DNA of 64,000 bases from a virus. Each line of letters opens with the position of its first letter. The stretch's first letter is position 1. Of this stretch, positions 14,450-57,028 are shown in pieces. Below the pieces are notes generated by a model. That model did not search any database. It was given only the letters and a program-made list of their open reading frames with translations, and was not told the origin of the DNA. The stretch spans positions 1-64,000 of the IMG/VR virus record IMGVR_UViG_3300032770_000003; one strand, written 5' to 3'. Made by a program: the position numbers and the translations under genes.

Positions 14450-16075
14450 TCATATTCTACCGCCGACGAAATCAGCGATGACCTGTGGCATGGATGTATC
14501 CAGACCACAGAAGTCCATCATTCCTCCGTCAGCCGGATCGGCGATGCTGACGTTGTTTGCCGTGAAGGCGATGACCGCCAACTTCGCGCCGTCCACCCGC
14601 TCCCTGCGATACTGCTTGATGGCCTGCGCGGGATGGATGTTGCCGTGGTTGGTCTCCGAGTCGGTGTAGACCAGGAAGGCGTCGACCTCCAGGTTGTTTT
14701 TGTAGGCGTGGGCCATCGGCAGTGAGCAGTCAGTCGAACCGAAGTCCGACCGCTGCACGATGTGCTCGACCTCATCGAGCCGCATGCGCGGGCTGATCTT
14801 CAGATCGACGAACTTGTGACAGAACCCGAAGAAGTAGTGCTGCTTCTCCACCCGGGCTGTCACCATCGCCATGACCGCCGCCCCCACAGTGGGCGTGATC
14901 CCTGTCATCCCAGCCAGCTCAGGCGAGCGCATCGACGCAGAGCAATCGATGCCCAGCAGAGTCCTCTTTCCGGTGGGCTCGATCGTGGCGAACGTCGCGT
15001 AGAACGCTTCGTCGAGGGCATCCACGATCCGCTGAGAGACGTCCCACTTCAATGAGCCCTTCACCCCATGCCCCCGGCGGTAGGTGTTGAGCGCCACCAG
15101 CACCTGCATGGGATGCAGACGTGCCCGACGAAGCCGCTCACCGTCGCCCAAGATCTCCATGGCTCTCTTCTCGCCCGCGGACAGCGGAGCGATAAGACCA
15201 ACCTCGGACATCTTGCCCAGGTTGCGGACCAGGGCATGCACGGGCATGTCCTGGAGCAACACCTCCCACACCTCCGCCTTGTTGAGCGCCTCAGTCGGCA
15301 GAGCCTCACGAGGCAGCCGATAGGCTGAGATCATCTGGGTCAGACGGTCCAGGTCCGCCTTCTTCTCGACGTCCAGACTCTTGACCGTGTCCGATGCCCA
15401 CAGCTGTGACAGCGGATCCTCCGGAGCGAGGACAGTGTCACCCCACGCCGGCTTCTTCTTCTCGGTCACCCAGCCGAACATGGAACGGTAGATGTCATCC
15501 GCGGGCTTCGCATGAGCCTTCCGAAGGACGTCCCGGTGAGACCAGCTGTCGCGCGACGGGTACTTGATCAGCTGGTAGGCGAGGTCATCGTAGTCCTGGC
15601 TGAGATACCAGTTTGCGATGGCATGCCGGATTCCGCGTCCCCAACCACCGAGTGTCTGGAGAGCCTCCACCAGGTGGAAGAGATGCGTCCCAATCCGGCA
15701 GACCTTCGGAATCGCACCACGAGCGTGGTTCGCGACTTCGGGATCCTTCGAACGGCACGCGAGCGCCAGGGCGAAGATCGCCGGATCGTTCTTCGGCGCC
15801 CGTCCTTCCTGCGAGATCTTGACGATCTCATCGACGGTCCGCTTGCCGTCAGCCGCAAGACAACGCTGCACACACTGCGCGTTTTGCAGCGTCAGCTTGC
15901 GTTCGGTGGCGTAGTACGAACCACCTTCACTGCCGAGAATCAGGAAGCGACGGAGTCGCGTCCAGTCGTCGACTTGGAAGGAGTAGCCACCACCCGAGTT
16001 CGGAATCTGCTTGCTGCCCGGGATTGGTGCTGTCTGGGGAGTCTGCTTCGGGTTCAGATGCTGTGCGTACTTCAA
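14450..16075 (-). CDS. rsr: Ro60/Rsr TROVE-vWA RNA-binding protein
   Basis: NSGGGYSF.VDDW.RL.RFLILGSEGGSYY, GWGRG, KYPSRDSWSHRD.LR..H, ALVRNLGKM, DCSASM, TDCSLP, VYTDSET, DPAD.GMMD..G.D. Confidence 0.95.
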   Translation of the reverse strand: MKYAQHLNPKQTPQTAPIPGSKQIPNSGGGYSFQVDDWTRLRRFLILGSEGGSYYATERKLTLQNAQCVQRCLAADGKRTVDEIVKISQEGRAPKNDPAIFALALACRSKDPEVANHARGAIPKVCRIGTHLFHLVEALQTLGGWGRGIRHAIANWYLSQDYDDLAYQLIKYPSRDSWSHRDVLRKAHAKPADDIYRSMFGWVTEKKKPAWGDTVLAPEDPLSQLWASDTVKSLDVEKKADLDRLTQMISAYRLPREALPTEALNKAEVWEVLLQDMPVHALVRNLGKMSEVGLIAPLSAGEKRAMEILGDGERLRRARLHPMQVLVALNTYRRGHGVKGSLKWDVSQRIVDALDEAFYATFATIEPTGKRTLLGIDCSASMRSPELAGMTGITPTVGAAVMAMVTARVEKQHYFFGFCHKFVDLKISPRMRLDEVEHIVQRSDFGSTDCSLPMAHAYKNNLEVDAFLVYTDSETNHGNIHPAQAIKQYRRERVDGAKLAVIAFTANNVSIADPADGGMMDFCGLDTSMPQVIADFVGGRI

Positions 16076-23068: not shown

Positions 23069-23171
23069 CAGTTCACACCGATATGAGAGGTCGGCACAGA
23101 GCGACCTTATCACCGGTGGATCAGACCCGACAAGACCCGTGTGTAGTGTTACGTTCCCGACACAGTGGCGG

Positions 23172-23244
23172 TGTTCCCGATGGGATTCGAACCCACAAAC
23201 TTCCGCTTAGGACGCGGACGCCCGTCCGATCGGGCTCCGGGAAC
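23172..23244 (-). tRNA. tRNA-Arg(CCT)
   Basis: cloverleaf; loop GUCCUAA. Confidence 0.85.
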
Positions 23245-23468
23245 TTGCCGAACGACTCGCCAGCGATTTTTCGAACAGAGGGCCAGGTCGTGGAACGCCA
23301 ACCACGCCAGTAAGTTGATCAAGACGGTCATCTGAATGTTGTGCGTCAAAGACCAAGCTTCCAGCTCCCCCCAAGACCGACTGCGGCGTAAGAAGGACTT
23401 GAGAGGAGCTGTCCAAGCCCGCCACCGGTAGTCGTTCGCTGCTGGAATCTCGTAGGCAGCAGGGTAGT

Positions 23469-23987
23469 CTACGGCAGAAGGTCCGTCGACCAGTACTGAG
23501 CCCACTCCGGTGGAGTTGCCCCGCTCACCTTCACCGACACCACCGGCAGGTAGGTCGGCTTTTTCGGCTTGCGAACGAGCGTCATCCCCGCCTCCTGTGG
23601 AGTCCGATCGGCTTTCGTCGTGTTGCACGTTAGACACGATGAGACAATGTTCTGCCATGTCGTCTTTCCACCACGCGACCGTGGGATGACGTGATCAAAG
23701 TTCAAATCCTCGGTGTTGAAACGCTGACCACAGTACTGACACTCGAAATGATCACGAATATACACGTTCAGGCGGCTGAACTTGATCCGGATCCGGTCCC
23801 GCTTGAAGCGAGCGAGCACCCGAACCACTGAGGGCATGGGAAAGCTCCGCGAAACACCCTGAATGGTTCGGTCCTTGGAGTATTCGATTACCTCCAATTT
23901 GCCCAAGATGGTGTCGGCGATCGCGTCTTGCCAGGACGTGACCCGCAACGGTCTCCAGTCGATGTCAAGTACCAAAACGGCGGTCAT
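23469..23987 (-). CDS. McrA-like HNH endonuclease
   Basis: VLVL...P...W..A...PSVVR...FSR.NV..RD...CQYCG...DHVIPRSRGG.T.W.N...C..CN. Confidence 0.9.
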   Translation of the reverse strand: MTAVLVLDIDWRPLRVTSWQDAIADTILGKLEVIEYSKDRTIQGVSRSFPMPSVVRVLARFKRDRIRIKFSRLNVYIRDHFECQYCGQRFNTEDLNFDHVIPRSRGGKTTWQNIVSSCLTCNTTKADRTPQEAGMTLVRKPKKPTYLPVVSVKVSGATPPEWAQYWSTDLLP

Positions 23988-24028
23988 CGGATTCTCCTTC
24001 GCGTCAATGTCGATTCATTGTTCCCTCG

Positions 24029-24101
24029 TGCGCTCGGAGAGATTCGAACTCTCACTTTGTAAGGCTTGAGCTTACTGCCTCTTCCGTTGGGCTACGAGCG
24101 C
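24029..24101 (-). tRNA. tRNA-Leu(CAA), short variable arm
   Basis: loop CUCAAGC. Confidence 0.85.
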
Positions 24102-24102
24102 G

Positions 24103-24315
24103 CTACACCTTATCCCCATCACCATACTCCGCCCGAATCACCTGATACAAGAACCTCCCTTTGGATGGTGCGTCAATGAACTGCTCGAAGACCCCACGCG
24201 GGACGTCCTGGTACGCATAGACAGCTCCGTTGCGAAACTGGACGTAGAGGATCTGTTCCTCGCGGTCGTAGGCCACGGCACTGATGTGCGACGACGCTAC
24301 CGCCTGGATCCTCAT
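24103..24315 (-). CDS. KTSC domain protein
   Basis: VASSHI.AV.YD.....L.V.F.NG.VY.Y..VP...F.....APSKG.F. Confidence 0.9.
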   Translation of the reverse strand: MRIQAVASSHISAVAYDREEQILYVQFRNGAVYAYQDVPRGVFEQFIDAPSKGRFLYQVIRAEYGDGDKV

Positions 24316-24335
24316 GCGACCCAGTTTACATCAAG

Positions 24336-24416
24336 TGCGCTCGGGGGGATTCGAACCCCCATGCCCGAAGGCACGGCTTCTGAGACCGCCACGTATGCCA
24401 GTTCCGTCACGAGCGC
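24336..24416 (-). tRNA. tRNA-Leu(CAG)
   Basis: loop CUCAGAA; long variable arm. Confidence 0.9.
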
Positions 24417-24420
24417 GAAG

Positions 24421-24501
24421 TCGATGGGGAGGGATTCGAACCCTCATGCCGAAGCACTGGCTTCTAACGCCAGCGTGTCTTACCTGTTCCACCACCCACC
24501 G
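24421..24501 (-). tRNA. tRNA-Leu(TAG)
   Basis: loop GUUAGAA; long variable arm. Confidence 0.85.
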
Positions 24502-24523
24502 GATGGGTTGCGACTGCGCAAAG

Positions 24524-24598
24524 TAGCCACGGCGGGATTCGAACCCGCACTGTACACGTCCTCAACGTGCTGCCTCTTCCAAGTTGGGCTACGTGGCC
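24524..24598 (-). tRNA. tRNA-Leu(GAG), short variable arm
   Basis: loop UUGAGGA. Confidence 0.85.
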
Positions 24599-24599
24599 G

Positions 24600-24673
24600 T
24601 GGGGGCGGAGGGATTCGAACCCTCACTGAGCCGGTTTTAGAGCGGCTGCCTCGTCCGGTTGGGCTACACCCCC
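24600..24673 (-). tRNA. tRNA-Leu(TAA), atypical (C33, C31:C39)
   Basis: AGCCG-CUCUAAAAC-CGGCU; completes the Leu cluster. Confidence 0.7.
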
Positions 24674-24698
24674 TGGTGACTCGGGTCATGTGATCTTG

Positions 24699-24792
24699 TC
24701 CGGGTGACAGGAATCGAACCTGTGCACTTGCGCTTATCTAGCGCTAACGCGGGGTATAAAGCCGCTGCTCTACCTAGCTGAGCTACACCCGG
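24699..24792 (-). tRNA. tRNA-Ile(TAT)-like with long variable arm
   Basis: loop UUUAUAC; variable arm GCGCU-AGAUA-AGCGC. Confidence 0.75.
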
Positions 24793-24826
24793 GTCCTTAC
24801 CTTCCTCTCAGAACGAGAGGTGTATA

Positions 24827-24988
24827 ATGCTGATAGCCATAGTCCCGATTGTGATCATGGTGGTTGGCCTCTTGATGTGGGTGCTGGCCGGGAATCCGTA
24901 TGTCAAAGAAGCCGGAAAAATCATGTTCTTCAGCGGGATGCTAGTGACCACCTTTGTGTGTGCGAAGGTCACCTGGCGTATCACCTAA
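24827..24988 (+). CDS. 53-aa two-TM membrane protein, antisense to the tRNA array
   Basis: GAGAGGTG RBS; MLIAIVPIVIMVVGLLMWVLAGNPYVKEAGKIMFFSGMLVTTFVCAKVTWRIT. Confidence 0.7.
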   Translation: MLIAIVPIVIMVVGLLMWVLAGNPYVKEAGKIMFFSGMLVTTFVCAKVTWRIT

Positions 24989-24990
24989 AG

Positions 24991-25061
24991 CGGAGCTGAC
25001 GGGAATCGAACCCGCCTCACGCCGTAGACAGCGGCGCAGCCTCCCAGATGCTTACAGCTCC
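24991..25061 (-). tRNA. tRNA-Asp(GTC)
   Basis: loop CUGUCUA. Confidence 0.85.
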
Positions 25062-25068
25062 ATTCAAG

Positions 25069-25141
25069 TCCGGATGGAGGGAATCGAACCCCCGCTGTCG
25101 TGGTGTGTAGGACCACCGCTCTGCCCCTGAGCTACACCCGG
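25069..25141 (-). tRNA. tRNA-Val(TAC)
   Basis: loop CCUACAC (C33). Confidence 0.85.
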
Positions 25142-25150
25142 GTCATATCG

Positions 25151-25223
25151 TGGGAACGGCAGGCTTTGCTCCTGCGACCTCCGGCGTGTCGAGCCGACGC
25201 TCTCCTGACTGAGCTACGCTCCC
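25151..25223 (-). tRNA. tRNA-Val(GAC)
   Basis: loop UCGACAC (C33); T loop AGCAAAG. Confidence 0.8.
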
Positions 25224-25228
25224 ATGTG

Positions 25229-25301
25229 TCGGGGTAACAGGATTCGAACCTGTGTCGTCTCGGCCCCCAGCCGAGTGCCTGAACCTCTAGGCTACACCCC
25301 G
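25229..25301 (-). tRNA. tRNA-Pro(GGG)
   Basis: loop CUGGGGG. Confidence 0.9.
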
Positions 25302-25658
25302 GTACGAAACAGCATGTGCACGACTACAAAACGGCTTGGACTTGTGTACTAGACGCTTTTCTCTAAGGAACGCTTTTCCACAAAAGGAGCACGTCAAAGG
25401 AACCATGGTCTTGGGTTTGTGATGACGTCGAACGTGCTCAGCCTGAGACACCAACACTTCTAAGTTCTCAAGGCGGTTATCCTTCTTACGTTCATTCTTG
25501 TGGTGAACCACCTCAAGAGCAGTCAGCAGCCGTCCTAAATGGTTTTCCATCACCACACGATGCAGATACACACGTCCTCTTGTATCTGCTGCTGGATGCT
25601 CTGGAACAATTGCCACGTCGTACTGACCGCGGCTCTCTACTCGACGAATCACCCACAC
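25287..25658 (-). CDS. HNH endonuclease; stop codon inside tRNA-Pro
   Basis: HRVVME..LGR.L...EVVHHKN..K.DNRLENL; C-terminal CSFC...FCS. Confidence 0.88.
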   Translation of the reverse strand: MWVIRRVESRGQYDVAIVPEHPAADTRGRVYLHRVVMENHLGRLLTALEVVHHKNERKKDNRLENLEVLVSQAEHVRRHHKPKTMVPLTCSFCGKAFLREKRLVHKSKPFCSRAHAVSYRGVA

Positions 25659-25689
25659 CGGGAAAAGATATCACCACAGAGGGGCTTCG

Positions 25690-25760
25690 TGGCGGTGGAG
25701 GAATCTGCCCCCTCTCCAAGTCCTTATGAGAGACCCGTCTCCTCTGGTGGAGTCACCGCC
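25690..25760 (-). tRNA. tRNA-Met/Ile2(CAT), degenerate D and T loops
   Basis: loop CUCAUAA; GGCGGUG/CACCGCC. Confidence 0.7.
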
Positions 25761-25766
25761 AATCGG

Positions 25767-25840
25767 TACCGCCGACAGGAATCGAACCTGCTCTATTCCG
25801 GTTTCGTAGACCGGCGCCCATCCAATTAGACTACGGCGGT
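25767..25840 (-). tRNA. tRNA-Arg(ACG)
   Basis: loop CUACGAA. Confidence 0.9.
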
Positions 25841-25845
25841 GTGTG

Positions 25846-25918
25846 CGACCCAGCCGGGGGATGATCCCGGATCCTCAGTGTGAAAGACTGAGATGCTTGC
25901 CGTTTACACCACTGGGTC
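25846..25918 (-). tRNA. tRNA-Glu(TTC)
   Basis: loop CUUUCAC; T loop AUCAUCC. Confidence 0.82.
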
Positions 25919-26324
25919 ATTTACGCGATTCACGGCTAATAATCCGCTGAATTTGCTGCCAACAAACTACTGGAAACAGCTTAGCTATAGCTCGAAGTGA
26001 CATAGATGTTGTTGCTCTCAATCGGCGGATCTCAGCTACTTGAGCCACAGTCAGCTTGAACGGACCATCCAAACATTCCTCAGATTTATTCAGATGACAA
26101 GCGTGACAAAGAACTTGACACTTTACTATCTCGGCAGCGCGCTTTGACGCTTTCCAAGACCAAATGTTGTGATCTACTTTCTGTGTGGCGTCGATATGGT
26201 CAAGTTCCAAATCTTCTGTTGCACCACATCTAATGCAACACTTCCCAAAGAAAAATTGTTGTCTCCGCGCAATCATCCACTTACGTTGATACTCCCGCTG
26301 CGTCCGTACGTCCTTATATGGCAT
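25917..26324 (-). CDS. HNH endonuclease with C-terminal HTH, between two tRNA-Glu genes
   Basis: CIRCG..EDLELDHID...KCQVLCHACH. Confidence 0.85.
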   Translation of the reverse strand: MPYKDVRTQREYQRKWMIARRQQFFFGKCCIRCGATEDLELDHIDATQKVDHNIWSWKASKRAAEIVKCQVLCHACHLNKSEECLDGPFKLTVAQVAEIRRLRATTSMSLRAIAKLFPVVCWQQIQRIISRESRK

Positions 26325-26325
26325 G

Positions 26326-26397
26326 TGACCCCATCGGGTATCGATCCCGATCCTCCAGCGTGAGAGGCTGGTGACCTAGCCAGTAGTCTATGGGGCC
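26326..26397 (-). tRNA. tRNA-Glu(CTC)
   Basis: loop CUCUCAC. Confidence 0.88.
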
Positions 26398-26443
26398 AAC
26401 CGGGTTAATAGCCCGGTTATGTGCCCCCAGTGGGGCGATCGAA

Positions 26444-26884
26444 TCAACGACCGAATCGCTTCCGCTGCTTGAAGCGAAGAATTCCTTGAGCGTCCACAAA
26501 CGCTCCCGATACCGGAAGACAAAAGAGTCGATAGGGGCTGTTGTACTGAGTGACGATGTCTCGTTCCACGTGCCGCAGGAAGTGCCACCCCTTGAGCGTC
26601 CGCCGATCGTAGCGACGGCAAAGCTCACTGTAGACATCATTCCAGGGGCGTCCCGCGCGGGACGCCATGAAGCGTTCGGTCTGACTGAAGCGATCACCCA
26701 TCGTGGTCCAGTACTCAGGATCCCTGATGGGATCCGGACCAGCATCGGTGGCGTCTTCCTCCGAACGGATCCGTTTCAGATAGACTCTGATGGCCTGCCT
26801 TTCCGCACGCTGATTCCAGTAGTCCATCGCGCGACCAGCTCTGCCGCCTTCGACGACAGAACGAGCCAGGTTTCGTGTTGCCAT
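26444..26884 (-). CDS. hypothetical basic protein
   Basis: GGGAGG RBS; NLARSVVEGGR...GRPWNDVYSELC...FVDAQGILR. Confidence 0.7.
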   Translation of the reverse strand: MATRNLARSVVEGGRAGRAMDYWNQRAERQAIRVYLKRIRSEEDATDAGPDPIRDPEYWTTMGDRFSQTERFMASRAGRPWNDVYSELCRRYDRRTLKGWHFLRHVERDIVTQYNSPYRLFCLPVSGAFVDAQGILRFKQRKRFGR

Positions 26885-26935
26885 TGATGACCTCCCTTAA
26901 TGGGCTGTGATCATCGGGCACCTCCTTTCCTTTCG

Positions 26936-27003
26936 CGTCCCCTGGGTGAGTTGAACACCCTAACCCGCCTTCGGAGGGCAGGTACCAATCCGTTGGAGAG
27001 GAC
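26936..27003 (-). tRNA. tRNA-Arg(CCG), reduced D arm
   Basis: GUCCUCU/AGGGGAC; loop CUCCGAA; T loop UUCAACU. Confidence 0.65.
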
Positions 27004-27016
27004 AATAGTCAGAGAG

Positions 27017-27091
27017 CGCGCTCGGGGGGAGTCGAACCCCCACACGGCGACTTAGAAGGTCGCTGCTTTTCCAACCTTAAGCTACGAGCGC
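27017..27091 (-). tRNA. tRNA-Arg(TCT)
   Basis: loop CUUCUAA. Confidence 0.9.
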
Positions 27092-27513
27092 ATGAAAATT
27101 CGGTGAGGACCTAGGTAGTCTGTTGCCCATCGCATGTTCTTCTTTTGCTTAGATGCAACAACCCTTAAGTTGAGGTGTACGGCGCCACGCCAGTCTCTTT
27201 GGCGCAAATAGTAACAAAGCCCGTTGTCAGGACAGTAAACAGCAAAAGCATCATAATCCCCTTCTTTGTGAGTACGTATGTGCGTGCCGTGTCTGTCAGC
27301 CCACGAGCTTCTACGTGTCAATCTCAATGATCCTCCACGCAACGCCCTATACTTCACGGAAACTCTGGCCAATCTTCCATCTTCCGCGACCGCAATGAGG
27401 TCAAAAGGAAGATGCTCACTCAAGGGGAGCGCCACATGAAAGTTATTGCGCATAAGGTCAGCAATTACGTGCCCCAGCCCTTGGTCCCCTTTGTCCTTGG
27501 TGTGGTGTCGCAC
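27082..27513 (-). CDS. PD-(D/E)XK endonuclease (group I intron-associated type); stop inside tRNA-Arg
   Basis: TKDKGD.G...V..PLSEHLPFDLI...RVSVK...YD.FAVYCP. Confidence 0.85.
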   Translation of the reverse strand: MRHHTKDKGDQGLGHVIADLMRNNFHVALPLSEHLPFDLIAVAEDGRLARVSVKYRALRGGSLRLTRRSSWADRHGTHIRTHKEGDYDAFAVYCPDNGLCYYLRQRDWRGAVHLNLRVVASKQKKNMRWATDYLGPHRIFMRS

Positions 27514-27529
27514 AAAACCAGAATACCAG

Positions 27530-27602
27530 CTCCAGGAGCAGGAATCGAACCTGCCTCATCTCGCTTAACAGGCGAGCGCTTAAACCGATCAGCCATCCTG
27601 GA
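27530..27602 (-). tRNA. tRNA-Asn(GTT)
   Basis: loop CUGUUAA. Confidence 0.9.
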
Positions 27603-27605
27603 ATA

Positions 27606-27745
27606 GAGCGAACGAAATTATTAGCACTGAGAAGTTTTGAGACGGGATTCGAATCCGCGACCTCCGGCTTTTCGGGCCGGCGCTCTACCACTGAGCTACA
27701 TCCCCGTAATGTGGGGATGGACAACCCAACACAAGCGGCTCGCTC
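27606..27745 (-). ncRNA. Y RNA-like element Y1 carrying a permuted tRNA-Phe-like cloverleaf
   Basis: GAGCGAGCCGC...UUUCGUUCGCUC bulged-C helix; internal CAUCCCC/GGGGAUG, D arm, CCGAAAA loop, T arm. Confidence 0.75.
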
Positions 27746-27747
27746 AG

Positions 27748-27820
27748 AGCCTGTCCCCTGAATCGAACAGGGTATCTCCGCATTACAAGTGCGGCGCTTC
27801 GCCAGCAAAGCTTGACAGGC
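27748..27820 (-). tRNA. tRNA-Thr(TGT)
   Basis: loop CUUGUAA. Confidence 0.88.
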
Positions 27821-27842
27821 AGGTGCTCCACCCTCCCCGCAG

Positions 27843-27914
27843 AGCTGCTGCCGAGAATCGAACTCGGTTTTCCGTTTTACGAAAACGGCGCGTCACCATT
27901 TACGCTTCAGCAGC
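27843..27914 (-). tRNA. tRNA-Thr(CGT)
   Basis: loop UUCGUAA. Confidence 0.88.
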
Positions 27915-28018
27915 ACGAACGAACGCGGTCACATCTCAACTGGAACGTTCAGCACTCGGCGTTCTACCAAACACCGACTGAACGGAGGAACCAGCAGCGA
28001 GGTGACCTCCTGGTACTG

Positions 28019-28091
28019 AGCTGGTGGAGCGAATCGAACGCTCTCCCTCCCCGATACCAACGGGGTGCTCACCCAAATGAGCTTCACCAGC
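28019..28091 (-). tRNA. tRNA-Thr(GGT)
   Basis: loop UUGGUAU. Confidence 0.88.
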
Positions 28092-28097
28092 GATCGG

Positions 28098-28169
28098 AGC
28101 ACTGTGCGGAACTCGAATCCGCGTGGAACAGCTTGGAAGGCTGCCGCCTAACCTCTCGGCCAACAGTGC
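28098..28169 (-). tRNA. tRNA-Gly(TCC)
   Basis: loop CUUCCAA. Confidence 0.9.
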
Positions 28170-28176
28170 AGTTCTG

Positions 28177-28248
28177 AGCATCCAGCGGGAGTTGAACCCG
28201 CTATTCCAGCTTGGCAAGCTGGCGTGTAGCCACAAACACTTTGGATGC
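28177..28248 (-). tRNA. tRNA-Gly(GCC)
   Basis: loop UUGCCAA. Confidence 0.88.
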
Positions 28249-28251
28249 AAG

Positions 28252-28333
28252 GGGTGGACAAAGAATTGAGGACGGAAACGGGGTTTTCGCCCCGAGTCTC
28301 CAATGACGATAACCGTCCTCTGGCGGCCCACCC
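28252..28333 (-). ncRNA. Y RNA-like element Y2
   Basis: GGGUGGGCCGC...UUUGUCCACCC; upper stem GAGGACGG/CCGUCCUC; GUUAUC. Confidence 0.8.
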
Positions 28334-28337
28334 ACAG

Positions 28338-28408
28338 AGGTCTTGGTCAGAGTTGAACTGACGATGGCGCTTTTGCAGAGCGCTGCCTTGCCACTTGGCT
28401 ACAAGACC
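28338..28408 (-). tRNA. tRNA-Cys(GCA)
   Basis: loop CUGCAAA. Confidence 0.9.
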
Positions 28409-28413
28409 GAAAG

Positions 28414-28503
28414 AGGAGATGAAGCGAGTTGAACGCTCGGAGCCTTTGCAGGACTCGGTAGTTTAGCAAACTACTGTGGAAAACCGTCATCCACGTCATC
28501 TCC
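28414..28503 (-). tRNA. tRNA-Ser(GCT)
   Basis: loop UUGCUAA; long variable arm. Confidence 0.82.
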
Positions 28504-28508
28504 AAGAG

Positions 28509-28597
28509 AGGAAGGCGGAGGTCACGATCCCCATGCCGGTCACCCGGACACGCACTGTTTTCGAAACAGGCTCAGCACCAGTGCCGATTCGCCTTCC
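28509..28597 (-). tRNA. tRNA-Ser(CGA)
   Basis: loop UUCGAAA; long variable arm; atypical T loop. Confidence 0.78.
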
Positions 28598-28599
28598 AA

Positions 28600-28770
28600 G
28601 AAAGGTTCGACGGGTTCTTCCCCCGCTGATGACGGCCCAGCTCCCCGGCATTTCAAAAGTCACCATTGACCGGATCGTCGCGGCCTGCGCGTCAGTAGGC
28701 ACACGATGGGTGCCCCCATCATGACTACTATCCTGCACACTGTATGTGTACACCGTGCTGCGAACCTTTC
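28600..28770 (-). ncRNA. unassigned multi-hairpin RNA
   Basis: 10-bp closing stem GAAAGGUUCG/CGAACCUUUC filling the inter-tRNA spacer. Confidence 0.5.
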
Positions 28771-28771
28771 G

Positions 28772-28859
28772 AGGAGACGGCGTGAGTCGAACACGCGTGA
28801 CGCTTTCGCGATCAGCCACAGCTTTCCAAGCTGGCACATTTCCGCTCTGTCACGTCTCC
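28772..28859 (-). tRNA. tRNA-Ser(GGA)
   Basis: loop UUGGAAA; long variable arm. Confidence 0.88.
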
Positions 28860-28862
28860 AAA

Positions 28863-28950
28863 GCGGCCCGGGATTCCGTCGGGTCTGCGGTGCACCACTA
28901 CCCGATAACGTACCCGGTTGGCTTGCGGGTTAACAACCCGGGCCTGCCGC
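28863..28950 (-). ncRNA. possible permuted Y-like element Y3 (divergent)
   Basis: GCCCGG-GUUGUU-loop-AGCCAA-CCGGGU then GUUAUC; closed by GCGGC/GCCGC. Confidence 0.45.
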
Positions 28951-28974
28951 ATATTCAGTTGTCGTACGCTCAGG

Positions 28975-29298
28975 CTAGCAGGAGAAGCAGATACCGCCAC
29001 CACGCTTGTGGGGCATGTTCCGCGTCCCCTCCTTTCCGTTGCGCATCTTTCCGCCGAATCGGATCTTCTTGGTCAGAACCCGGATGGGCCCTCCGTCCGG
29101 TGGGCGGAAGGCTCTGGCATCGACCTGCGTGTACCCCTGCGCGAGCAAGCTGTGCTTCATGCAGTTGAACGCTTCGGTAGTCGATGAATGGGCCTTGATC
29201 TTGTCCTTGTCGAGGCTGTGATTCAGCGGGGTCAAAGTTCCTGTACAGTATTCCTCGGCAGTACCACACAGATACAGATACGGACGTCGGGCTGGCAC
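28975..29298 (-). CDS. hypothetical basic protein
   Basis: AAGGAG RBS, GTG start. Confidence 0.6.
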   Translation of the reverse strand: MPARRPYLYLCGTAEEYCTGTLTPLNHSLDKDKIKAHSSTTEAFNCMKHSLLAQGYTQVDARAFRPPDGGPIRVLTKKIRFGGKMRNGKEGTRNMPHKRGGGICFSC

Positions 29299-29562
29299 AG
29301 TGGGCTCCTTGGTTCGAGAGAGATTCGGTGAATCGACTCGAACGAGAAGCCCATCAGCGTGACGTCAGCCCCGCGAGTTACATGACACGCACCCGCGTGG
29401 AGGTGACGTCGGCCCTACTCATTTCGTGACTCATAGGGATTCGACCTCCTTTCAATTAAGGTGAACCAAGTCTGCGCCTGACATTTGGTTCGTCTGAACT
29501 TCCACAGGGTCAGGATCATAGACTCCAGGATCGTCTTAGCGTCCATTGACTCGGTCCACCAG

Positions 29563-29648
29563 CGGAGAGAGGAGGAATCGAACCCCCTGCGTTCGTCACG
29601 ACAGCCCCCGCGTTCAAGGCGGGTTTCCGACCAATCGGGGCTCTCTCC
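29563..29648 (-). tRNA. tRNA-Ser(TGA)
   Basis: loop CUUGAAC; long variable arm. Confidence 0.82.
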
Positions 29649-29651
29649 ATA

Positions 29652-29758
29652 GGGCGAACGAATTGATCGCTGGTCCGTTCCCCGTACCGGCAAGGTACGG
29701 GTCCTTCCTCCCGTCGAGCGGGCAGTGTGCCGATAACGAACCAACAGGCGGCTCGCCC
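29652..29758 (-). ncRNA. Y RNA-like element Y4
   Basis: GGGCGAGCCGC...UUCGUUCGCCC; upper stem UGUUGGUUCG/CGGACCAGCG; GUUAUC; two effector hairpins. Confidence 0.8.
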
Positions 29759-29760
29759 AG

Positions 29761-29829
29761 CGGGCTGATAGGGAATTGAACCCTACCCTACCGTTTTGGA
29801 GACGGTTTGGCCTCCTTGGCCTTCAGCCC
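29761..29829 (-). tRNA. tRNA-Trp(CCA), compact
   Basis: GGGCUGA/UCAGCCC; loop CUCCAAA. Confidence 0.75.
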
Positions 29830-30210
29830 TCTACTACGTCGTTTCCAATCCCGACACACCTCACAGCGACAATGTTGTCTAACATACATCGAAGCCGTTC
29901 CGTGTTGACGCCTGCGCGTCCAGAACTCACGCATTTCTGTTCGTGTCTTACGCCAGTGACACGCAACACACAACAACTGGCACTTGCTAAGTTCCTCCAG
30001 AAGAACAATAAGCGGTCGTCCGATATGTTTGGTAATCGCAAACAGTTTCGTACTAGGATCGACATGATCAAAGTCGAGTCCACACGTGTCACCACACCAA
30101 ACGCACCTGTCGCCAAGAAAAGCCATCATGACTCGTATGCGGGTACGATACCGCTGACTATCGTAGAGTCGATGATAGCGTCTTTGGTACTCCTTTTCTC
30201 GCACTGCCAC
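29788..30210 (-). CDS. HNH endonuclease reading 42 nt into tRNA-Trp
   Basis: LGDRCVWCG...LDFDHVDP..K...ELSKCQLLC..CH; HGT..Y...CRC..C. Confidence 0.85.
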   Translation of the reverse strand: MAVREKEYQRRYHRLYDSQRYRTRIRVMMAFLGDRCVWCGDTCGLDFDHVDPSTKLFAITKHIGRPLIVLLEELSKCQLLCVACHWRKTRTEMREFWTRRRQHGTASMYVRQHCRCEVCRDWKRRSRGLKAKEAKPSPKR

Positions 30211-30237
30211 GGTTCACTGCAACTCGTATAACACAGA

Positions 30238-30312
30238 TGGTGGAGGCGCGGAGAGTCGAACTCCGGATTACCGGGTGCAAACCGGTCGTGTTCCCGCTAG
30301 CACTACGCCCCC
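30238..30312 (-). tRNA. tRNA-Ala(TGC)
   Basis: loop UUUGCAC; G3:U70; encoded CCA. Confidence 0.92.
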
Positions 30313-30450
30313 AGACTCAACAAATACAACGGAGAGCATACCGAGTCCACCACAGATTCGGCACTGCTTGAGTGTCATGTCGTTGTAGCCTCGCCCCTGA
30401 CAGGCTGGACAACGTCCACATGCTGTGCTCTGCTTTTTTCTTTAGGCATG

Positions 30451-30523
30451 TCGGGATGACTGGATTCGAACCAGCGTCGTCACGCTCCCAAAGCGTGTGC
30501 CTGAACCCCTAGGCTACATCCCG
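30451..30523 (-). tRNA. tRNA-Pro(TGG)
   Basis: loop UUUGGGA. Confidence 0.9.
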
Positions 30524-30877
30524 TTTGTGTCGACGAAAATACTCACGAACGAACGCGCGACAAACATCACAACGGCATCGACGTTTGTAGCGTCCCCAAG
30601 TCCCGTGCCCTGGTGTACGCTCCAGCCTGGTTTTCAGATCATGACAAACTGCACACAGTAACTGACACTTAGCGAGTTCAGCTTCTACTCTTTTCGTGGA
30701 CCAGGACCATATCCTCGAAACAGACGCTGTCTTGGTTGTCCGGTCTATGTGGTCAAACTCAAGATTTTGCACTGATCCACACCAAGCACAGCAACCACCT
30801 AGCTTAGCAATCCAAGCGGCACGTAGCGCATGATAACGACGCAAACAATAAGCACTATGTGCTGGTCCGGATATCAC
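30509..30877 (-). CDS. HNH endonuclease; stop inside tRNA-Pro
   Basis: LGGCCAWCG...LEFDHID...ELAKCQLLC..CH; HGT..Y..CRC..C. Confidence 0.85.
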   Translation of the reverse strand: MISGPAHSAYCLRRYHALRAAWIAKLGGCCAWCGSVQNLEFDHIDRTTKTASVSRIWSWSTKRVEAELAKCQLLCAVCHDLKTRLERTPGHGTWGRYKRRCRCDVCRAFVREYFRRHKRDVA

Positions 30878-30884
30878 GAGTTAG

Positions 30885-30956
30885 TTCCACGGCGTGGATT
30901 CGAACCACGACAAGCAACTTCAAAGGATGCTGTCCTACCTATTAGACCACCGTGGA
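30885..30956 (-). tRNA. tRNA-Gln(TTG)
   Basis: loop CUUUGAA. Confidence 0.88.
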
Positions 30957-30960
30957 TCGA

Positions 30961-30997
30961 TACGTCAAGCAGTCCTGACCAATTGGACGAACCCGGA
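30961..30997 (-). ncRNA. tRNA 5' half (partner of 31096-31139)
   Basis: UCCGGGU-UC-GUCC-AAUUGGUCA-GGAC-U-GCUUG. Confidence 0.55.
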
Positions 30998-31005
30998 TCG
31001 CTGGG

Positions 31006-31079
31006 GGTGAGAAACCGGAGTCGCACCGGCTAGACCGTGGGTCACAGCCACGGGGCTCCACTCTTTGCCTTTTCTCACC
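31006..31079 (-). tRNA. tRNA-His(GTG)
   Basis: loop CUGUGAC; G-1:C73. Confidence 0.82.
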
Positions 31080-31095
31080 GCAATCGCTTCTTGGC

Positions 31096-31139
31096 CTCCG
31101 GGGTGAGTGATTTGAACACTCGCGCGGATGCTCACGTCA
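31096..31139 (-). ncRNA. tRNA 3' half (partner of 30961-30997)
   Basis: UGAGC-variable-GAGUG-UUCAAAU-CACUC-ACCCCGGA-G. Confidence 0.55.
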
Positions 31140-31144
31140 TTTCG

Positions 31145-31217
31145 TGCACGCATCGGGAGTCGAACCCGCGTCTCACGCTTATCGGGCGTGTGCTCTAGCC
31201 TGCTGAGCTATGCGTGC
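31145..31217 (-). tRNA. tRNA-Ile(GAT)
   Basis: loop CCGAUAA (C33). Confidence 0.88.
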
Positions 31218-31534
31218 GCACATTCCGTGTTTTCACAGTGCTCCTCACCATGACAGTTCAAGCACAGGAGTACACATTTCCGCAATTCGGTCTCGATCTT
31301 ACTCCAGGAACAAGCCCCACCAATGCCGAATGACTTCTCACCTGGATGATGAAAAATCAACGAGCGATGGCAACGGTTGTATCCACACCGATTACAACAC
31401 CCTCCTAGTAATGCTACCGCTTTGGCCTTCGTACGACGCCGCCAGACTTTCAGCTGATCATACGTTCGGCAGTTCCTGCACCGTCCCGTCTTGTTTCTTG
31501 ACGAGAGGTCTGTACCACACCGATCACATACCAT
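31208..31534 (-). CDS. HNH-like endonuclease; stop inside tRNA-Ile
   Basis: LGGCCNRCGY..C..SL.FHH...K.F.I...ELRKCVLLC.NCH.E.H. Confidence 0.85.
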   Translation of the reverse strand: MVCDRCGTDLSSRNKTGRCRNCRTYDQLKVWRRRTKAKAVALLGGCCNRCGYNRCHRSLIFHHPGEKSFGIGGACSWSKIETELRKCVLLCLNCHGEEHCENTECAHA

Positions 31535-31606
31535 GTCAGTCAGTGCTTATCAAAGAAAGATAAGACGATCAAGGACCCATCCTGACCATTAGATGAAAGG
31601 TGCAGG

Positions 31607-31735
31607 CGCGCGACGCCGGGACTCGAACCCGGATCTCCTCTTTCCATAGAGAGATAACCCTACCCAAGCGGCTCGGTTCCCCGAACGAAGAGACGAGCAG
31701 GATGTTTAGCGCTCTACCATTGAGCTACATCGCGC
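31607..31735 (-). ncRNA. Y5: tRNA-shaped RNA with an inserted, loop-closed Ro-binding domain
   Basis: acceptor GCGCGAUG/CGUCGCGC; D arm; AUCCUGCUCG/UGGGUAGGGU; UUCGUUCGG-GGAA-CCGAGCCGC; GUUAUC; T arm. Confidence 0.78.
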
Positions 31736-31740
31736 ATGAG

Positions 31741-31809
31741 GCGACGGACAAAGGGAACGTGCTGGGTGGTTTACCTTGAAGTGGTAACCCAACACTTGCG
31801 GCCCGTCGC
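31741..31809 (-). ncRNA. Y6: minimal Y RNA-like element
   Basis: GCGACGGGCCGC...UUUGUCCGUCGC; GUGUUGGG/CCCAGCAC; GUUACC. Confidence 0.8.
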
Positions 31810-31813
31810 TTTG

Positions 31814-31888
31814 TCGGAGTGGTGTGAATCGAACACACGTCATCTCGGTCCCGAACCGAGTGCCTGAAACCCACTAGGCTACACCCCG
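31814..31888 (-). tRNA. tRNA-Pro(CGG)
   Basis: loop UUCGGGA. Confidence 0.9.
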
Positions 31889-31890
31889 AA

Positions 31891-32004
31891 GATGTGATGG
31901 AGAGCGTTTGGATTCGAACCATTAGCTCCGATAACCCTTTCCGGTCGGCTCGCAGCGAGGCGAACAAAAGATTTGGAGAGGGAGTTGCCACTCTCCACCA
32001 CGTC
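31891..32004 (-). ncRNA. Y7: circularly permuted Y RNA-like element with T loop
   Basis: outer stem GUGGUGGAGAGUG/CGCUCUCCAUCAC; UUUUGUUCGC-loop-GCGAGCCGA; GUUAUC; UGG-UUCGAAU-CCA. Confidence 0.75.
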
Positions 32005-32005
32005 G

Positions 32006-32078
32006 TGCCCTAGTCCTGAATCGAACAGGAATCTTTGCAGTTTCAGTGCAACGCCTTCACCAGATAGGCTTCCAGGGC
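32006..32078 (-). tRNA. tRNA-Phe(GAA)
   Basis: loop CUGAAAC. Confidence 0.88.
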
Positions 32079-32165
32079 ATGATTGGCGGGCTTGGCAGGC
32101 CCGCCGCAGTCGCAACTATGAAGTTGTCAGTGATCAGATTTCAGGGGGAGCTACCCCACTGTCTG

Positions 32166-32236
32166 TTGGGGCGGAAGGAATTGCACCCTCATTCACGGAG
32201 TCAGAGTCCGCTGTCCTCCTGTTGGACGACATCCCA
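32166..32236 (-). tRNA. tRNA-Gln(CTG)
   Basis: loop CUCUGAC. Confidence 0.88.
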
Positions 32237-32252
32237 TCAATTTGTTCTGTCG

Positions 32253-32324
32253 TGAGCTGCCGGCGACTTGCACGCCGCTAGTCGGTTTAAGAGACCGATC
32301 CGTCGCTATCTACGGTTGCAGCCC
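32253..32324 (-). tRNA. tRNA-Lys(CTT)
   Basis: loop CUCUUAA. Confidence 0.82.
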
Positions 32325-32473
32325 GTTTCTTGTAAGCCGGCTCGTGTTTCGTCCAGCGAGTATCCTTCAATCAACGCGAGGTAGATTCCCTGATCTCCCA
32401 GTCCAGACAACTCCTTTGCTCGGGCAGTAGCCCATTCAACCTGTTCGTCCAGTGTAAGCAACCTTCTGCGCAT
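32306..32473 (-). CDS. 55-aa ORF between two tRNA-Lys genes
   Basis: MRRRLLTLDEQVEWATARAKEL...; ATG 3 nt after the upstream tRNA, stop inside the downstream tRNA. Confidence 0.4.
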   Translation of the reverse strand: MRRRLLTLDEQVEWATARAKELSGLGDQGIYLALIEGYSLDETRAGLQETGCNRR

Positions 32474-32476
32474 CTG

Positions 32477-32550
32477 TGCAGCCGACAGGACTTGAACCTG
32501 CTCAGTCCGTCTTAAAAGGACGGTGCCCAGACCAGTCGGGCGCCAGCTGC
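32477..32550 (-). tRNA. tRNA-Lys(TTT)
   Basis: loop CUUUUAA. Confidence 0.88.
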
Positions 32551-32555
32551 ATCGG

Positions 32556-32642
32556 TCGGCGGGGTGGGAATCGAACCCACCGGCGACCCGAAGGTCAACG
32601 CGTTTACGGCGCGCCCGGACTCCATTGTCCTGTTTCCCGCCG
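32556..32642 (-). tRNA. tRNA-Tyr(GTA) with C1:G72
   Basis: loop CCGUAAA (C33); long variable arm. Confidence 0.8.
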
Positions 32643-57015: not shown

Positions 57016-57028
57016 CAGAGTTCCCCTT

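What the first reader, a model, noticed from the sequence alone, without database searches (positions are those of the whole stretch)
31607..32004. Circularly permuted Y RNAs: Ro helix closed by a loop, ends moved to an acceptor-like stem
Seen: in Y5 and Y7 the normal 3' strand of the Ro helix comes first and is joined to the normal 5' strand by a short loop (UUCGUUCGG-GGAA-CCGAGCCGC; UUUUGUUCGC-CUCGCU-GCGAGCCGA). Y5 is otherwise tRNA-shaped: open 8-bp acceptor stem, canonical D arm, anticodon-like hairpin and perfect T arm, with the Ro domain inserted after the D arm. Established: in described Y RNAs the Ro stem is formed by the 5' and 3' ends and the YrlA acceptor stem is loop-closed. Inference: Y5 could be cut by RNase P/Z, receive CCA and possibly be charged, giving a Ro60-tethered tRNA.
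Basis: partly seen in the sequence, partly recalled or inferred. Interest (0 to 1): 0.82.

Follow-up and report, generated by a model that had tools for sequence, protein, structure and literature searches.

The report
Y RNA built in tRNA order
In a large phage's tRNA gene cluster sits a Ro60-binding "Y RNA" laid out like a real tRNA, with free acceptor ends and the Ro60-binding helix where the anticodon arm should be; the same unreported layout recurs next to Ro60 genes in cyanobacteria and other phages.

Summary
Y5 (31605-31735, minus strand) has an open 8-bp acceptor stem, canonical D and T arms, and a Ro60-type bulged helix closed by a GGAA loop. Half-models built from 18 conventional phage YrlA RNAs hit Y5 in reversed order: D-arm/Ro-3' half first (27.9 bits), Ro-5'/T-arm half second (57.4 bits). 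So it is a true circular permutation of YrlA, meaning YrlA in native tRNA order.

Y5 is not a one-off. Scans of metagenomes and genomes found dozens of units with the same layout. These lie 60-600 nt from Ro60 genes (2.3 kb in one locus), either flush inside phage tRNA arrays or as 3-5 tandem copies upstream of rsr in heterocystous cyanobacteria. All seven acceptor pairs covary and none is broken. CCA is encoded in 24 of 36 units. A model built without Y5 scores it 81 bits (E 2e-20); ordinary tRNAs reach 40 at most.

Y7 shares the loop-closed Ro helix and T-loop but lacks a D arm and fits the class poorly (17 bits). It is probably a truncated paralogue.

tRNA-type end processing and CCA addition are supported indirectly. 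Aminoacylation is untested, and the "anticodon-like" hairpin is not conserved. I found no published description of this layout. Verdict: a new variant of a known kind.

The parts
31605..31735 (-). Y5: complete tRNA-order Y RNA (8-bp acceptor stem, D arm, loop-closed Ro helix, V hairpin, T arm, 3' G-C-C)
   Evidence: R3 (class model built without Y5) 81.4 bits, E 2e-20, full length. Rfam tRNA model 43.8 bits with a 71-nt insert.
31728..31735 (-). Y5 acceptor 5' strand GCGCGAUG (includes G-1)
   Evidence: Pairs 8/8 with 31608-31615. The equivalent 7 pairs covary in the class with none broken.
31711..31725 (-). Y5 D arm GCUC-AAUGGUA-GAGC
   Evidence: Rfam tRNA alignment; R1 alignment.
31694..31710 (-). 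Junction GCUAAAC plus AUCCUGCUCG (AAACAUCC motif and 3'-type strand of the upper helix)
   Evidence: AAACAUCC is invariant in the class. Pairs with 31657-31666 in the MFE fold. Upper-helix pairs covary.
31668..31689 (-). Ro60-type helix closed by a loop: UUCGUUCGG - GGAA - CCGAG[C]CGC, with a potential bulged C
   Evidence: Sequence; GAGCCGC match. Same 5'-strand motif as 18 conventional phage YrlAs. The GCUC/GAGC core pairs are invariant in the class.
31653..31660 (-). GGGUUAUC motif (end of upper helix and junction)
   Evidence: 6 matches in the window against 1.6 expected; 3 of them lie in this 400-nt stretch. Invariant in the reference YrlAs.
31633..31655 (-).
   Evidence: MFE fold. Aligns to the V region of YrlA. 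Variable in length and pairing across the class.
31616..31632 (-). Y5 T arm CCGGG-UUCGAGU-CCCGG
31605..31615 (-). Y5 acceptor 3' strand CGUCGCGC followed by G-C-C
   Evidence: Fits the array's N73-C74 convention.
31894..32001 (-). Y7: truncated relative. 13-bp terminal stem (32001-31989 with 31906-31894), loop-closed Ro helix (31969-31945), GGGUUAUC (31937-31930), T-like arm (31923-31907). No D arm and no V hairpin.
   Evidence: R2 34.9 bits, E 5e-10; R3 17.1 bits; MFE -39.3 kcal/mol, z -3.0; alignment to Y5.
31741..31810 (-). Y6: short Y RNA with conventional ends, lying between Y5 and tRNA-Pro (context)
   Evidence: Nematode stem-bulge (Y RNA homologue) model RF01656, 27.8 bits, below its gathering score of 38. 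MFE z -4.8.
14450..16075 (-). Phage Ro60 (TROVE plus Ro60 vWA domain), the presumed protein partner
   Evidence: Pfam TROVE 135 bits and vWA_Ro60 185 bits.

Best explanation
Y5 is a Y RNA of the YrlA lineage encoded in native tRNA order. The acceptor stem is formed by the RNA's own 5' and 3' ends. D and T arms build the tRNA elbow. The position of the anticodon arm is taken by a long helix that carries the conserved Ro60-binding strand (GAGCCG, potential bulged C) and is capped by a GGAA tetraloop.

Inferred mechanism: Y5 is transcribed with the minus-strand tRNA array. It is released like its neighbours by RNase P at the 5' end and by host tRNA 3'-end processing plus CCA completion at the 3' end. 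Its loop-closed helix then binds the phage Ro60, leaving a tRNA-shaped body with a free NCCA end as the effector or tether module.

What is shown here: the anatomy, homology to YrlA in reversed module order, membership of a covarying class, and that class's linkage to Ro60 genes. What is inferred: the processing sites, Ro60 binding and the downstream role.

Y7 is a truncated paralogue that keeps the loop-closed Ro helix and the T-loop.
For: Reversed module order. In 18 conventional phage YrlAs, module A (Ro 5' strand to T arm) precedes module B (D arm to Ro 3' strand). In Y5, B (31734-31675; 27.9 bits; best hit in the window) precedes A (31682-31609; 57.4 bits).

Class membership. R3 was built from 14 metagenomic units without Y5 and scores Y5 at 81.4 bits, E 2e-20. 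The array's tRNAs reach at most 39.9 bits, conventional YrlA loci at most 52.8, and actinophage YrlAs at most 28.

Covariation. Across 22 sequences, 96.7% of cells are paired against 82.7% in shuffles and 38-57% in slid registers. 18 of 28 pairs show double changes. In the acceptor stem all 7 pairs are compensatory and none is broken.

Unit boundary. Within-unit acceptor pairing is 7/7 in 36 of 36 units. Pairing across adjacent units averages 5.3/7 and is often 2-4.

Ro60 linkage. A Ro60 homologue lies 60-600 nt from the unit (2.3 kb in L178) in at least 17 metagenome loci and in cyanobacterial genomes. The phage encodes Ro60.

tRNA-type ends. CCA lies within 5 nt of the acceptor in 24 of 36 units, where about 5% is expected. 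Units sit 4-9 nt from flanking tRNAs in arrays. Y5's 3' G-C-C fits the array convention.

Precedent. M. smegmatis YrlA is cut by RNase P and receives CCA in vivo (PMC4201824).
Against: There are no expression or end-mapping data for this uncultured phage. Y5 lies 15.5 kb from the phage Ro60 gene rather than adjacent to it. Rfam's YrlA model does not hit Y5 even at E 10, as expected for a permuted layout, so homology rests on models I built. The reference set and the class were retrieved with motif patterns (GAGCCG, GGGUUAUC, AACAUCC), so conservation of those motifs is partly by construction. Acceptor complementarity was used to delimit the first 22 units. The lower Ro stem is short (5 bp in Y5, 3 bp in many relatives), and whether Ro60 accepts a loop there is untested. 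The phage encodes no CCA-adding enzyme, so maturation would depend on the host.
Confidence: 0.75

Rival explanations
1. Y5 is a genuine decoding tRNA that carries an intron or tolerated insertion. ARAGORN in intron mode calls it tRNA-Thr(GGU) with a 37-nt intron. Alternatively the V hairpin serves as its anticodon arm.
For: ARAGORN intron-mode call. Rfam tRNA model 43.8 bits. The V hairpin has a 5-bp stem followed by an AGAU variable-loop-like linker. ARAGORN finds no His or Met tRNA in the phage.
Against: The 'intron' is the conserved YrlA Ro module (GAGCCG...GGGUUAUC, AAACAUCC). ARAGORN's anticodon stem needs an A.G pair and uses the invariant YrlA junction. The tip loop is a 4-nt tetraloop with no anticodon. 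The V region varies from 13 to 39 nt and often has no hairpin in relatives. The class is linked to Ro60 genes, not to codon usage. Short spliceosome-free tRNA introns of this kind are not known in bacteria (my knowledge).
Confidence: 0.04
2. Y5 is not a unit at all. It is the junction of two decayed conventional YrlA genes in tandem, with the 3' half of one abutting the 5' half of the next.
For: Tandem conventional YrlAs exist in other phages (L083, L128). Such a junction would give the same B-then-A order. This is a plausible evolutionary origin.
Against: No A module lies upstream of Y5 and no B module lies downstream. The flanks are Y6 and a protein-coding ORF. The outer strands pair 8/8 in exact tRNA register, and the Ro strands are joined by a GNRA tetraloop. 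In relatives, pairing is perfect within tRNA-order units and frequently fails across units. The acceptor stem covaries. CCA follows the acceptor 3' strand.
Confidence: 0.04
3. Y5-class RNAs are aminoacylated, or otherwise enter tRNA-handling pathways, through their CCA end while bound to Ro60.
For: Free acceptor end with CCA encoded in most relatives. Canonical elbow nucleotides in Y5. A G-1:C73 pair in Y5 and in several relatives. Chen et al. raised the same possibility for M. smegmatis YrlA (PMC4201824).
Against: The acceptor stem is 8 bp followed by an extra unpaired base and then CC(A). That differs from tRNA-His, where C73 itself precedes CCA. Acceptor sequences are not conserved, so there are no consistent identity elements. 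There is no conserved anticodon arm. Nothing was tested experimentally.
Confidence: 0.1
4. Y7 only: it is a decaying pseudogene copy rather than a working Y RNA.
For: No D arm. The T stem has 3 Watson-Crick pairs and 2 A.A mismatches. R3 scores only 17.1 bits, below ordinary tRNAs. No close homologue was found.
Against: The Ro helix keeps the full consensus (5 bp, bulged C, C:G, G:U, A:U). The terminal stem is a perfect 13 bp flush with the T-like arm. The fold is better than shuffles (z -3.0). It fills the tRNA-Phe/tRNA-Pro spacer exactly.
Confidence: 0.35

Closest known systems
YrlA (Rfam RF02553; Salmonella Typhimurium, M. smegmatis, mycobacteriophages; Chen et al. 2014 PMC4201824; Wang et al. 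2018 bioRxiv 10.1101/312249)
   Same: Same Ro-binding 5'-strand motif (GNCGAA-like, here GAGCCGC), the same GGGUUAUC/AAACAUCC junction, tRNA-like D and T arms, an acceptor-like stem, and a Ro helix at the anticodon-arm position. Encoded in genomes with Ro60. M. smegmatis YrlA is also opened by RNase P and receives CCA.
   Different: In YrlA the RNA ends form the Ro helix and the acceptor stem is closed by a loop. In Y5 the Ro helix is closed by a loop and the ends form the acceptor stem. After RNase P cleavage M. smegmatis YrlA becomes two pieces, whereas Y5 would stay one chain. The Rfam YrlA model does not detect Y5.
Deinococcus radiodurans Yrn1
   Same: A Ro60-bound Y RNA with a T-arm-like element and D-then-T order relative to the 5' end (PMC4201824).
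   Different: According to that paper, the terminal Ro stem of Yrn1 sits at the acceptor position, and the stem-loop between the arms sits at the anticodon position. Y5 has a true open acceptor stem, with the Ro helix internal.
Circularly permuted tRNA genes (Cyanidioschyzon merolae and others; cited in bioRxiv 10.1101/312249) and two-piece tmRNA from permuted genes (my knowledge)
   Same: They show that tRNA-shaped RNAs tolerate circular permutation of the gene, and that ends can be moved between the acceptor and anticodon sides.
   Different: Those cases are processed back into normal tRNAs or functional tmRNA. Here the two layouts are alternative mature forms of a Ro60 partner RNA.
Class II tRNAs and tRNA-Sec (8/5 acceptor/T stack)
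   Same: Five-helix junction and, in Y5, an 8-bp acceptor plus a 5-bp T stem.
   Different: Y5 has no anticodon loop. The long arm carries a Ro60 site. The resemblance is one of geometry only (inference).

Membership tests
YrlA (RF02553) | Conserved Ro60-binding 5'-strand motif in a helix | tested here: met
   GAGCCGC at 31674-31668. R2 scores 57.4 bits, aligned to 18 phage YrlAs.
YrlA (RF02553) | tRNA-like T arm and D arm with conserved elbow nucleotides | tested here: met
   Rfam tRNA model 43.8 bits; R1 27.9 bits on the D-arm half.
YrlA (RF02553) | [quoted passage not shown] | tested here: not met
   The two acceptor strands lie at the outer ends, 31735-31728 and 31615-31608.
YrlA (RF02553) | [quoted passage not shown] | tested here: not met
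   The Ro strands are joined by the GGAA loop at 31680-31677. Actual RNA ends were not mapped.
YrlA (RF02553) | Score at or above Rfam's gathering threshold (69 bits) | tested here: not met
   No YrlA hit on Y5 at E up to 10. The conventional phage references also score below threshold, 29-45 bits.
YrlA (RF02553) | Encoded close to a Ro60 gene (within 4 kb in Chen et al.) | tested here: not met
   Same genome but 15.5 kb away. Class relatives do meet it.
tRNA (RF00005) | Cloverleaf with acceptor, D and T arms above the gathering score | tested here: met
   43.8 bits against a threshold of 29, but only with permissive filters.
tRNA (RF00005) | Anticodon arm (5-bp stem, 7-nt loop) at positions 27-43 | tested here: not met
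   71 nt occupy 15 model positions. ARAGORN needs a 37-nt 'intron'. The tip is a tetraloop.
tRNA-order Y RNA class (defined here by model R3) | Full-length match: acceptor 5' strand, D arm, AAACAUCC, Ro 3' strand, short loop, GAGCCG, GGGUUAUC, V, T arm, acceptor 3' strand | tested here: met
   Y5 scores 81.4 bits, E 2e-20, with a model built without it. Y7 scores 17.1 bits and does not qualify.
tRNA-order Y RNA class (defined here by model R3) | tRNA-like 3' end (unpaired base plus CCA after the acceptor stem) | tested here: inconclusive
   Y5 encodes G-C-C-U, lacking the final A. 24 of 36 relatives encode the full CCA. In Y5's array only 1 of 33 tRNAs encodes CCA.
Metazoan/nematode Y RNA (RF00019, RF01656) | Match to the family model | tested here: not met
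   Only neighbouring Y6 gives a sub-threshold hit, 27.8 bits against 38. Y5 and Y7 give none.

The most novel reading that the evidence does not exclude
tRNA-order Y RNAs are matured and CCA-tailed like tRNAs. Through that free acceptor end they are aminoacylated, or are bound by tRNA-handling factors (synthetase, CCA-adding enzyme, elongation factor or ribosome), while their anticodon-side helix holds Ro60. That would make them a physical tether between Ro60 RNA surveillance and the translation or tRNA-repair machinery. They may also represent the ancestral form from which loop-closed YrlA arose.
Probability: 0.12. Interest if true: 0.9.

Novelty: new variant of a known kind. Interest (0 to 1): 0.68.

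Why it matters
All characterised Y RNAs are described as having the Ro60 site in a stem formed by the RNA's two ends. YrlA is described as a tRNA mimic that lacks a free CCA end. Here the same modules are wired the other way round. The result is a one-piece RNA with a real acceptor end, and it recurs in cyanobacteria, Deinococcales-binned contigs and phage tRNA arrays.

This has four consequences. It gives a simple account of how such RNAs are released from tRNA arrays. It may explain why few standard YrlAs were found in cyanobacteria, and why those were drawn with 'longer acceptor stems'. It makes the old question of whether a Y RNA can be CCA-tailed or charged testable in culturable strains such as Scytonema, Plectonema and Tolypothrix. 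It also supplies an intermediate for the proposed tRNA origin of bacterial Y RNAs.

Tried and rejected
- Megablast of the region against GenBank phages found nothing. Exact-peptide search for Ro60 relatives in IMG/VR also found nothing. This phage has no close cultured relative: Ro60 is at most 42% identical and TerL at most 31%.
- Four motif scans of IMG/VR for other permuted units returned only chance hits in coding DNA, conventional YrlAs or tandem conventional YrlAs. The class appeared only in the metagenome and genome collections.
- Rfam's YrlA model does not see Y5 and gives only sub-threshold hits on the conventional phage references.
- tRNA-His mimicry was considered because of the G-1:C73 pair and the lack of an ARAGORN-called tRNA-His. 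I rejected it as a specific claim, because an extra unpaired base separates C73 from CC(A) in Y5 and in relatives.
- The 'anticodon-like' loop pattern (CU NNN AA) seen in a few relatives did not hold across the class.
- ARAGORN's tRNA-Thr-with-intron call is treated as an artefact.
- No CCA-adding enzyme (PF01743) or RtcB (PF01139) is detectable in the phage.
- The promoter/terminator scan gave nothing above shuffle expectation.
- Chen et al.'s supplement and the 2020 Annual Review on bacterial Ro60 were not available. I therefore could not check how the cyanobacterial RNAs were drawn.

Full report
**Setting.** The window is the first 64 kb of a 171.5 kb uncultured virus record that is 96% complete. 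A minus-strand array from about 23.1 to 32.7 kb holds 33 ARAGORN tRNAs plus a few atypical ones. A 541-aa Ro60 gene lies at 14450-16075 and carries TROVE and Ro60 vWA domains. The phage has no close cultured relative. Its Ro60 is at most 42% identical to actinophage Ro-like proteins, and its TerL is at most 31% identical to any match.

**Checking the observation.** Read on the minus strand, 31735-31605 runs in this order:
- GCGCGAUG, then UA
- the D arm GCUC-AAUGGUA-GAGC
- GCUAAAC
- a long helix whose tip is UUCGUUCGG-GGAA-CCGAGCCGC
- GGGUUAUC
- a 5-bp hairpin
- the T arm CCGGG-UUCGAGU-CCCGG
- CGUCGCGC followed by GCC

The outer strands pair 8/8. With permissive filters, Rfam's tRNA model aligns the element end to end at 43.8 bits, with 71 nt where the anticodon arm should be. 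Y7 (32001-31894) has the hairpin UUUUGUUCGC-CUCGCU-GCGAGCCGA, GGGUUAUC, a GGUUCGAAUCC T-loop on a weak stem, and a 13-bp terminal stem. It has no D arm.

**Is Y5 a permuted Y RNA?** A motif scan of IMG/VR (GAGCCG...GGGUUAUC...GGUUCGA) recovered YrlA-like RNAs in the tRNA arrays of large phages. All have the published YrlA order: Ro 5' strand, GGGUUAUC, V hairpin, T arm, loop-closed acceptor hairpin, D arm, AAACAUCC, then a UUG(U/C)UC Ro 3' strand. Rfam's YrlA model hits several of them full length at significant but sub-gathering scores of 29-45 bits.

From 18 of these I built two half-models. R2 covers module A, from the Ro 5' strand to the T arm. R1 covers module B, from the acceptor 3'-side strand and D arm to the Ro 3' strand. 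Module B played no part in the retrieval pattern, so it is an independent probe. I searched the whole window with filters off:
- R1's best hit is 31734-31675 (27.9 bits, E 7e-4).
- R2's best hit is 31682-31609 (57.4 bits, E 2e-17).
- R2's second hit is Y7, 31959-31900 (34.9 bits).

On the RNA, B therefore precedes A in Y5. This is the reverse of all 18 references. The break falls in the acceptor loop and the join falls at the Ro helix. Y5 is a clean circular permutation of YrlA. Because the literature describes YrlA itself as resembling a circularly permuted tRNA (bioRxiv 10.1101/312249), Y5 is YrlA restored to native tRNA order.

**A recurrent class.** Motif scans of IMG/VR for further permuted units found none. 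A scan for the B-to-A junction (AACAUCC, 12-42 nt, GAGCCG, 7-9 nt, GGGUUAUC) was more productive in the metagenome collection. It returned about 20 distinct units with the full Y5 layout: a D arm upstream, a T arm downstream, 7/7 complementary outer strands in exact tRNA register, and the Ro strands joined by 3-8 nt loops, often GNRA.

In an alignment of Y5 with 21 of them, RNAalifold recovers the tRNA-order fold. In that alignment 96.7% of pair cells are standard pairs, against 82.7% in column shuffles and 38-57% when partners are slid by 1-3 columns. Double changes occur at 18 of 28 pairs. All 7 acceptor pairs are compensatory and none is broken. One caveat applies: I used acceptor complementarity to delimit these units. 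However, the register is fixed against the D and T arms in every row.

Model R3, built from 14 units and excluding Y5, scores Y5 at 81.4 bits (E 2e-20). By comparison:
- the array's tRNAs score at most 39.9 bits
- conventional YrlA reference loci score at most 52.8 bits
- the YrlAs upstream of Ro60 in cultured actinophages score 23-28 bits
- Y7 scores 17.1 bits

**Linkage to Ro60, and carriers.** tblastn with the phage Ro60 finds a homologue (32-47% identity) within about 60-600 nt of the unit in at least 17 metagenome loci; in L178 the distance is 2.3 kb. Many units sit 4-9 nt from flanking tRNAs inside arrays.

The species-genome collection shows the class in heterocystous cyanobacteria: Scytonema hofmanni UTEX 2349, Heteroscytonema crispum, Plectonema radiosum NIES-515, Tolypothrix, Aliterella and Spirirestis. 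There it occurs as 3-5 tandem units directly upstream of rsr, with R3 scores of 100-121 bits. It also occurs on tRNA-array contigs binned with Deinococcales and other MAGs.

In tandem arrays the unit boundary could in principle be read the conventional way. To test that, I compared acceptor strands within and between units. Within tRNA-order units pairing is 7/7 in 36 of 36 units. Across adjacent units it averages 5.3/7 and is often only 2-4. The tRNA-order unit is therefore the real one.

CCA occurs within 5 nt of the acceptor strand in 24 of 36 units, where about 5% is expected by chance. It is commonly preceded by an eighth G:C pair and one unpaired base. Y5 has the same architecture: 8 bp, then G, then CC. 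All 33 tRNAs of its own array encode N73-C74, and only one encodes the full CCA. Y5 thus looks built for the same end-processing as its neighbours.

**The 'anticodon-like' hairpin.** This hairpin aligns with the V region of YrlA. Across the class the region varies from 13 to 39 nt and often lacks a stable hairpin. By homology with the solved YrlA structure, the Ro-side helix is the anticodon-stem equivalent (bioRxiv 10.1101/312249). ARAGORN's intron-mode call of tRNA-Thr with a 37-nt intron is an artefact of forcing this junction into a cloverleaf.

**Y7.** Aligned to Y5, Y7 keeps the Ro hairpin, GGGUUAUC and the T-loop. It lacks the acceptor-5'/D-stem segment and the V hairpin. Its terminal stem is 13 bp. 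It is permuted in the same sense, with a loop-closed Ro helix and ends next to the T arm. It is a remodelled, possibly decaying, paralogue and not a standard member of the class.

**Mechanism.**
- Shown: the anatomy, homology in reversed order, covariation, linkage to Ro60 genes, and tRNA-like 3' ends in relatives.
- Inferred: Y5 is co-transcribed with the array; RNase P cuts at the base of the acceptor stem; host enzymes trim the 3' end and complete CCA, since the phage encodes no CCA-adding enzyme; and the loop-closed helix binds the phage Ro60.

M. smegmatis YrlA is cut by RNase P and CCA-tailed in vivo (PMC4201824). This shows that the tRNA machinery accepts this scaffold. The permuted layout would leave a single chain after such processing instead of two. 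A tandem duplication of a conventional YrlA would create exactly this unit in its middle. Tandem YrlAs do exist (L083, L128), so the evolutionary route is short in either direction. Charging remains speculation, because acceptor sequences are not conserved and the 8-bp-plus-N arrangement is not the tRNA-His pattern.

**Novelty.** Full-text searches found YrlA described only with terminal Ro stems and closed acceptor stems. The M. smegmatis cleavage appears as a special case, and there is a speculative remark that some YrlAs might be processed to resemble canonical tRNAs. Chen et al. noted few YrlAs in cyanobacteria and 'longer acceptor stems' there. Those may be tandem tRNA-order units read across a boundary, but their supplement was not available. 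I rate the finding a new variant of a known kind, resting on solid computational evidence with no experimental evidence.

Noticed in passing
window 27621-27754 (-): A third Y RNA wiring. The order is Ro 5' strand (GAGCCGC..GGGUUGUC), a loop-closed acceptor-like hairpin (CAUCCCC/GGGGAUG), D arm, an anticodon-like arm, AGGUC, T arm, then a 3' strand pairing back to the start. It behaves as a tRNA broken between the T stem and the acceptor 3' strand. Rfam tRNA hit covers model positions 7-64 only; YrlA 20.6 bits; R1 20.4 bits.
   Followed up: partly
window 28249-28336, 29650-29759, 31741-31810 (-): Short Y RNAs with conventional ends fill tRNA spacers. They have a terminal bulged-C helix G(G/A)GCCG / UU(U/C)GU(C/U)C and no tRNA-like domain. 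The element at 31741-31810 gives a sub-threshold hit to the nematode stem-bulge (Y RNA homologue) model.
   Followed up: partly
window 23170-32642 (-), all tRNAs: All 33 ARAGORN tRNAs encode C74 after the discriminator, but only tRNA-Ala encodes the full CCA. The phage has no detectable CCA-adding enzyme or RtcB. This suggests a shared, host-dependent 3'-end maturation signal.
   Followed up: partly
L013, L123, L127, L131 (conventional phage YrlAs): In 4 of 18 conventional phage YrlAs the acceptor 'loop' begins ACCA immediately after the 7-bp stem. That suggests these too are opened and end in CCA, like M. smegmatis YrlA.
   Followed up: no
L237 7249-7974, L236 426-1235, L241 7198-7929, L240 2234-3047 (cyanobacterial genomes): Three to five tandem tRNA-order Y RNA units lie directly upstream of rsr/Ro60 in heterocystous cyanobacteria. 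The unit nearest rsr lacks the encoded CCA that the others have.
   Followed up: partly
Neither ARAGORN nor Rfam calls it, and the fold is no better than shuffles (z -0.5).
   Followed up: partly
window 25147-25224 (-): A tRNA-like gene scores 53.9 bits with Rfam's tRNA model but is not called by ARAGORN. It has a non-canonical T-loop (AGCAAAG) and an odd anticodon loop.
   Followed up: no
window 53386-57114 (-): The class II ribonucleotide reductase is interrupted by an intein-like insert with an HNH_3 endonuclease domain. The Intein_splicing match is just below Pfam's cut-off.
   Followed up: no
L177, L179, L192 and relatives (freshwater metagenome contigs): In this sub-family of tRNA-order units the D loop lacks GG and the T loop reads UGARAUC instead of UUCRANY. 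The two elbow partners have changed together.
   Followed up: no
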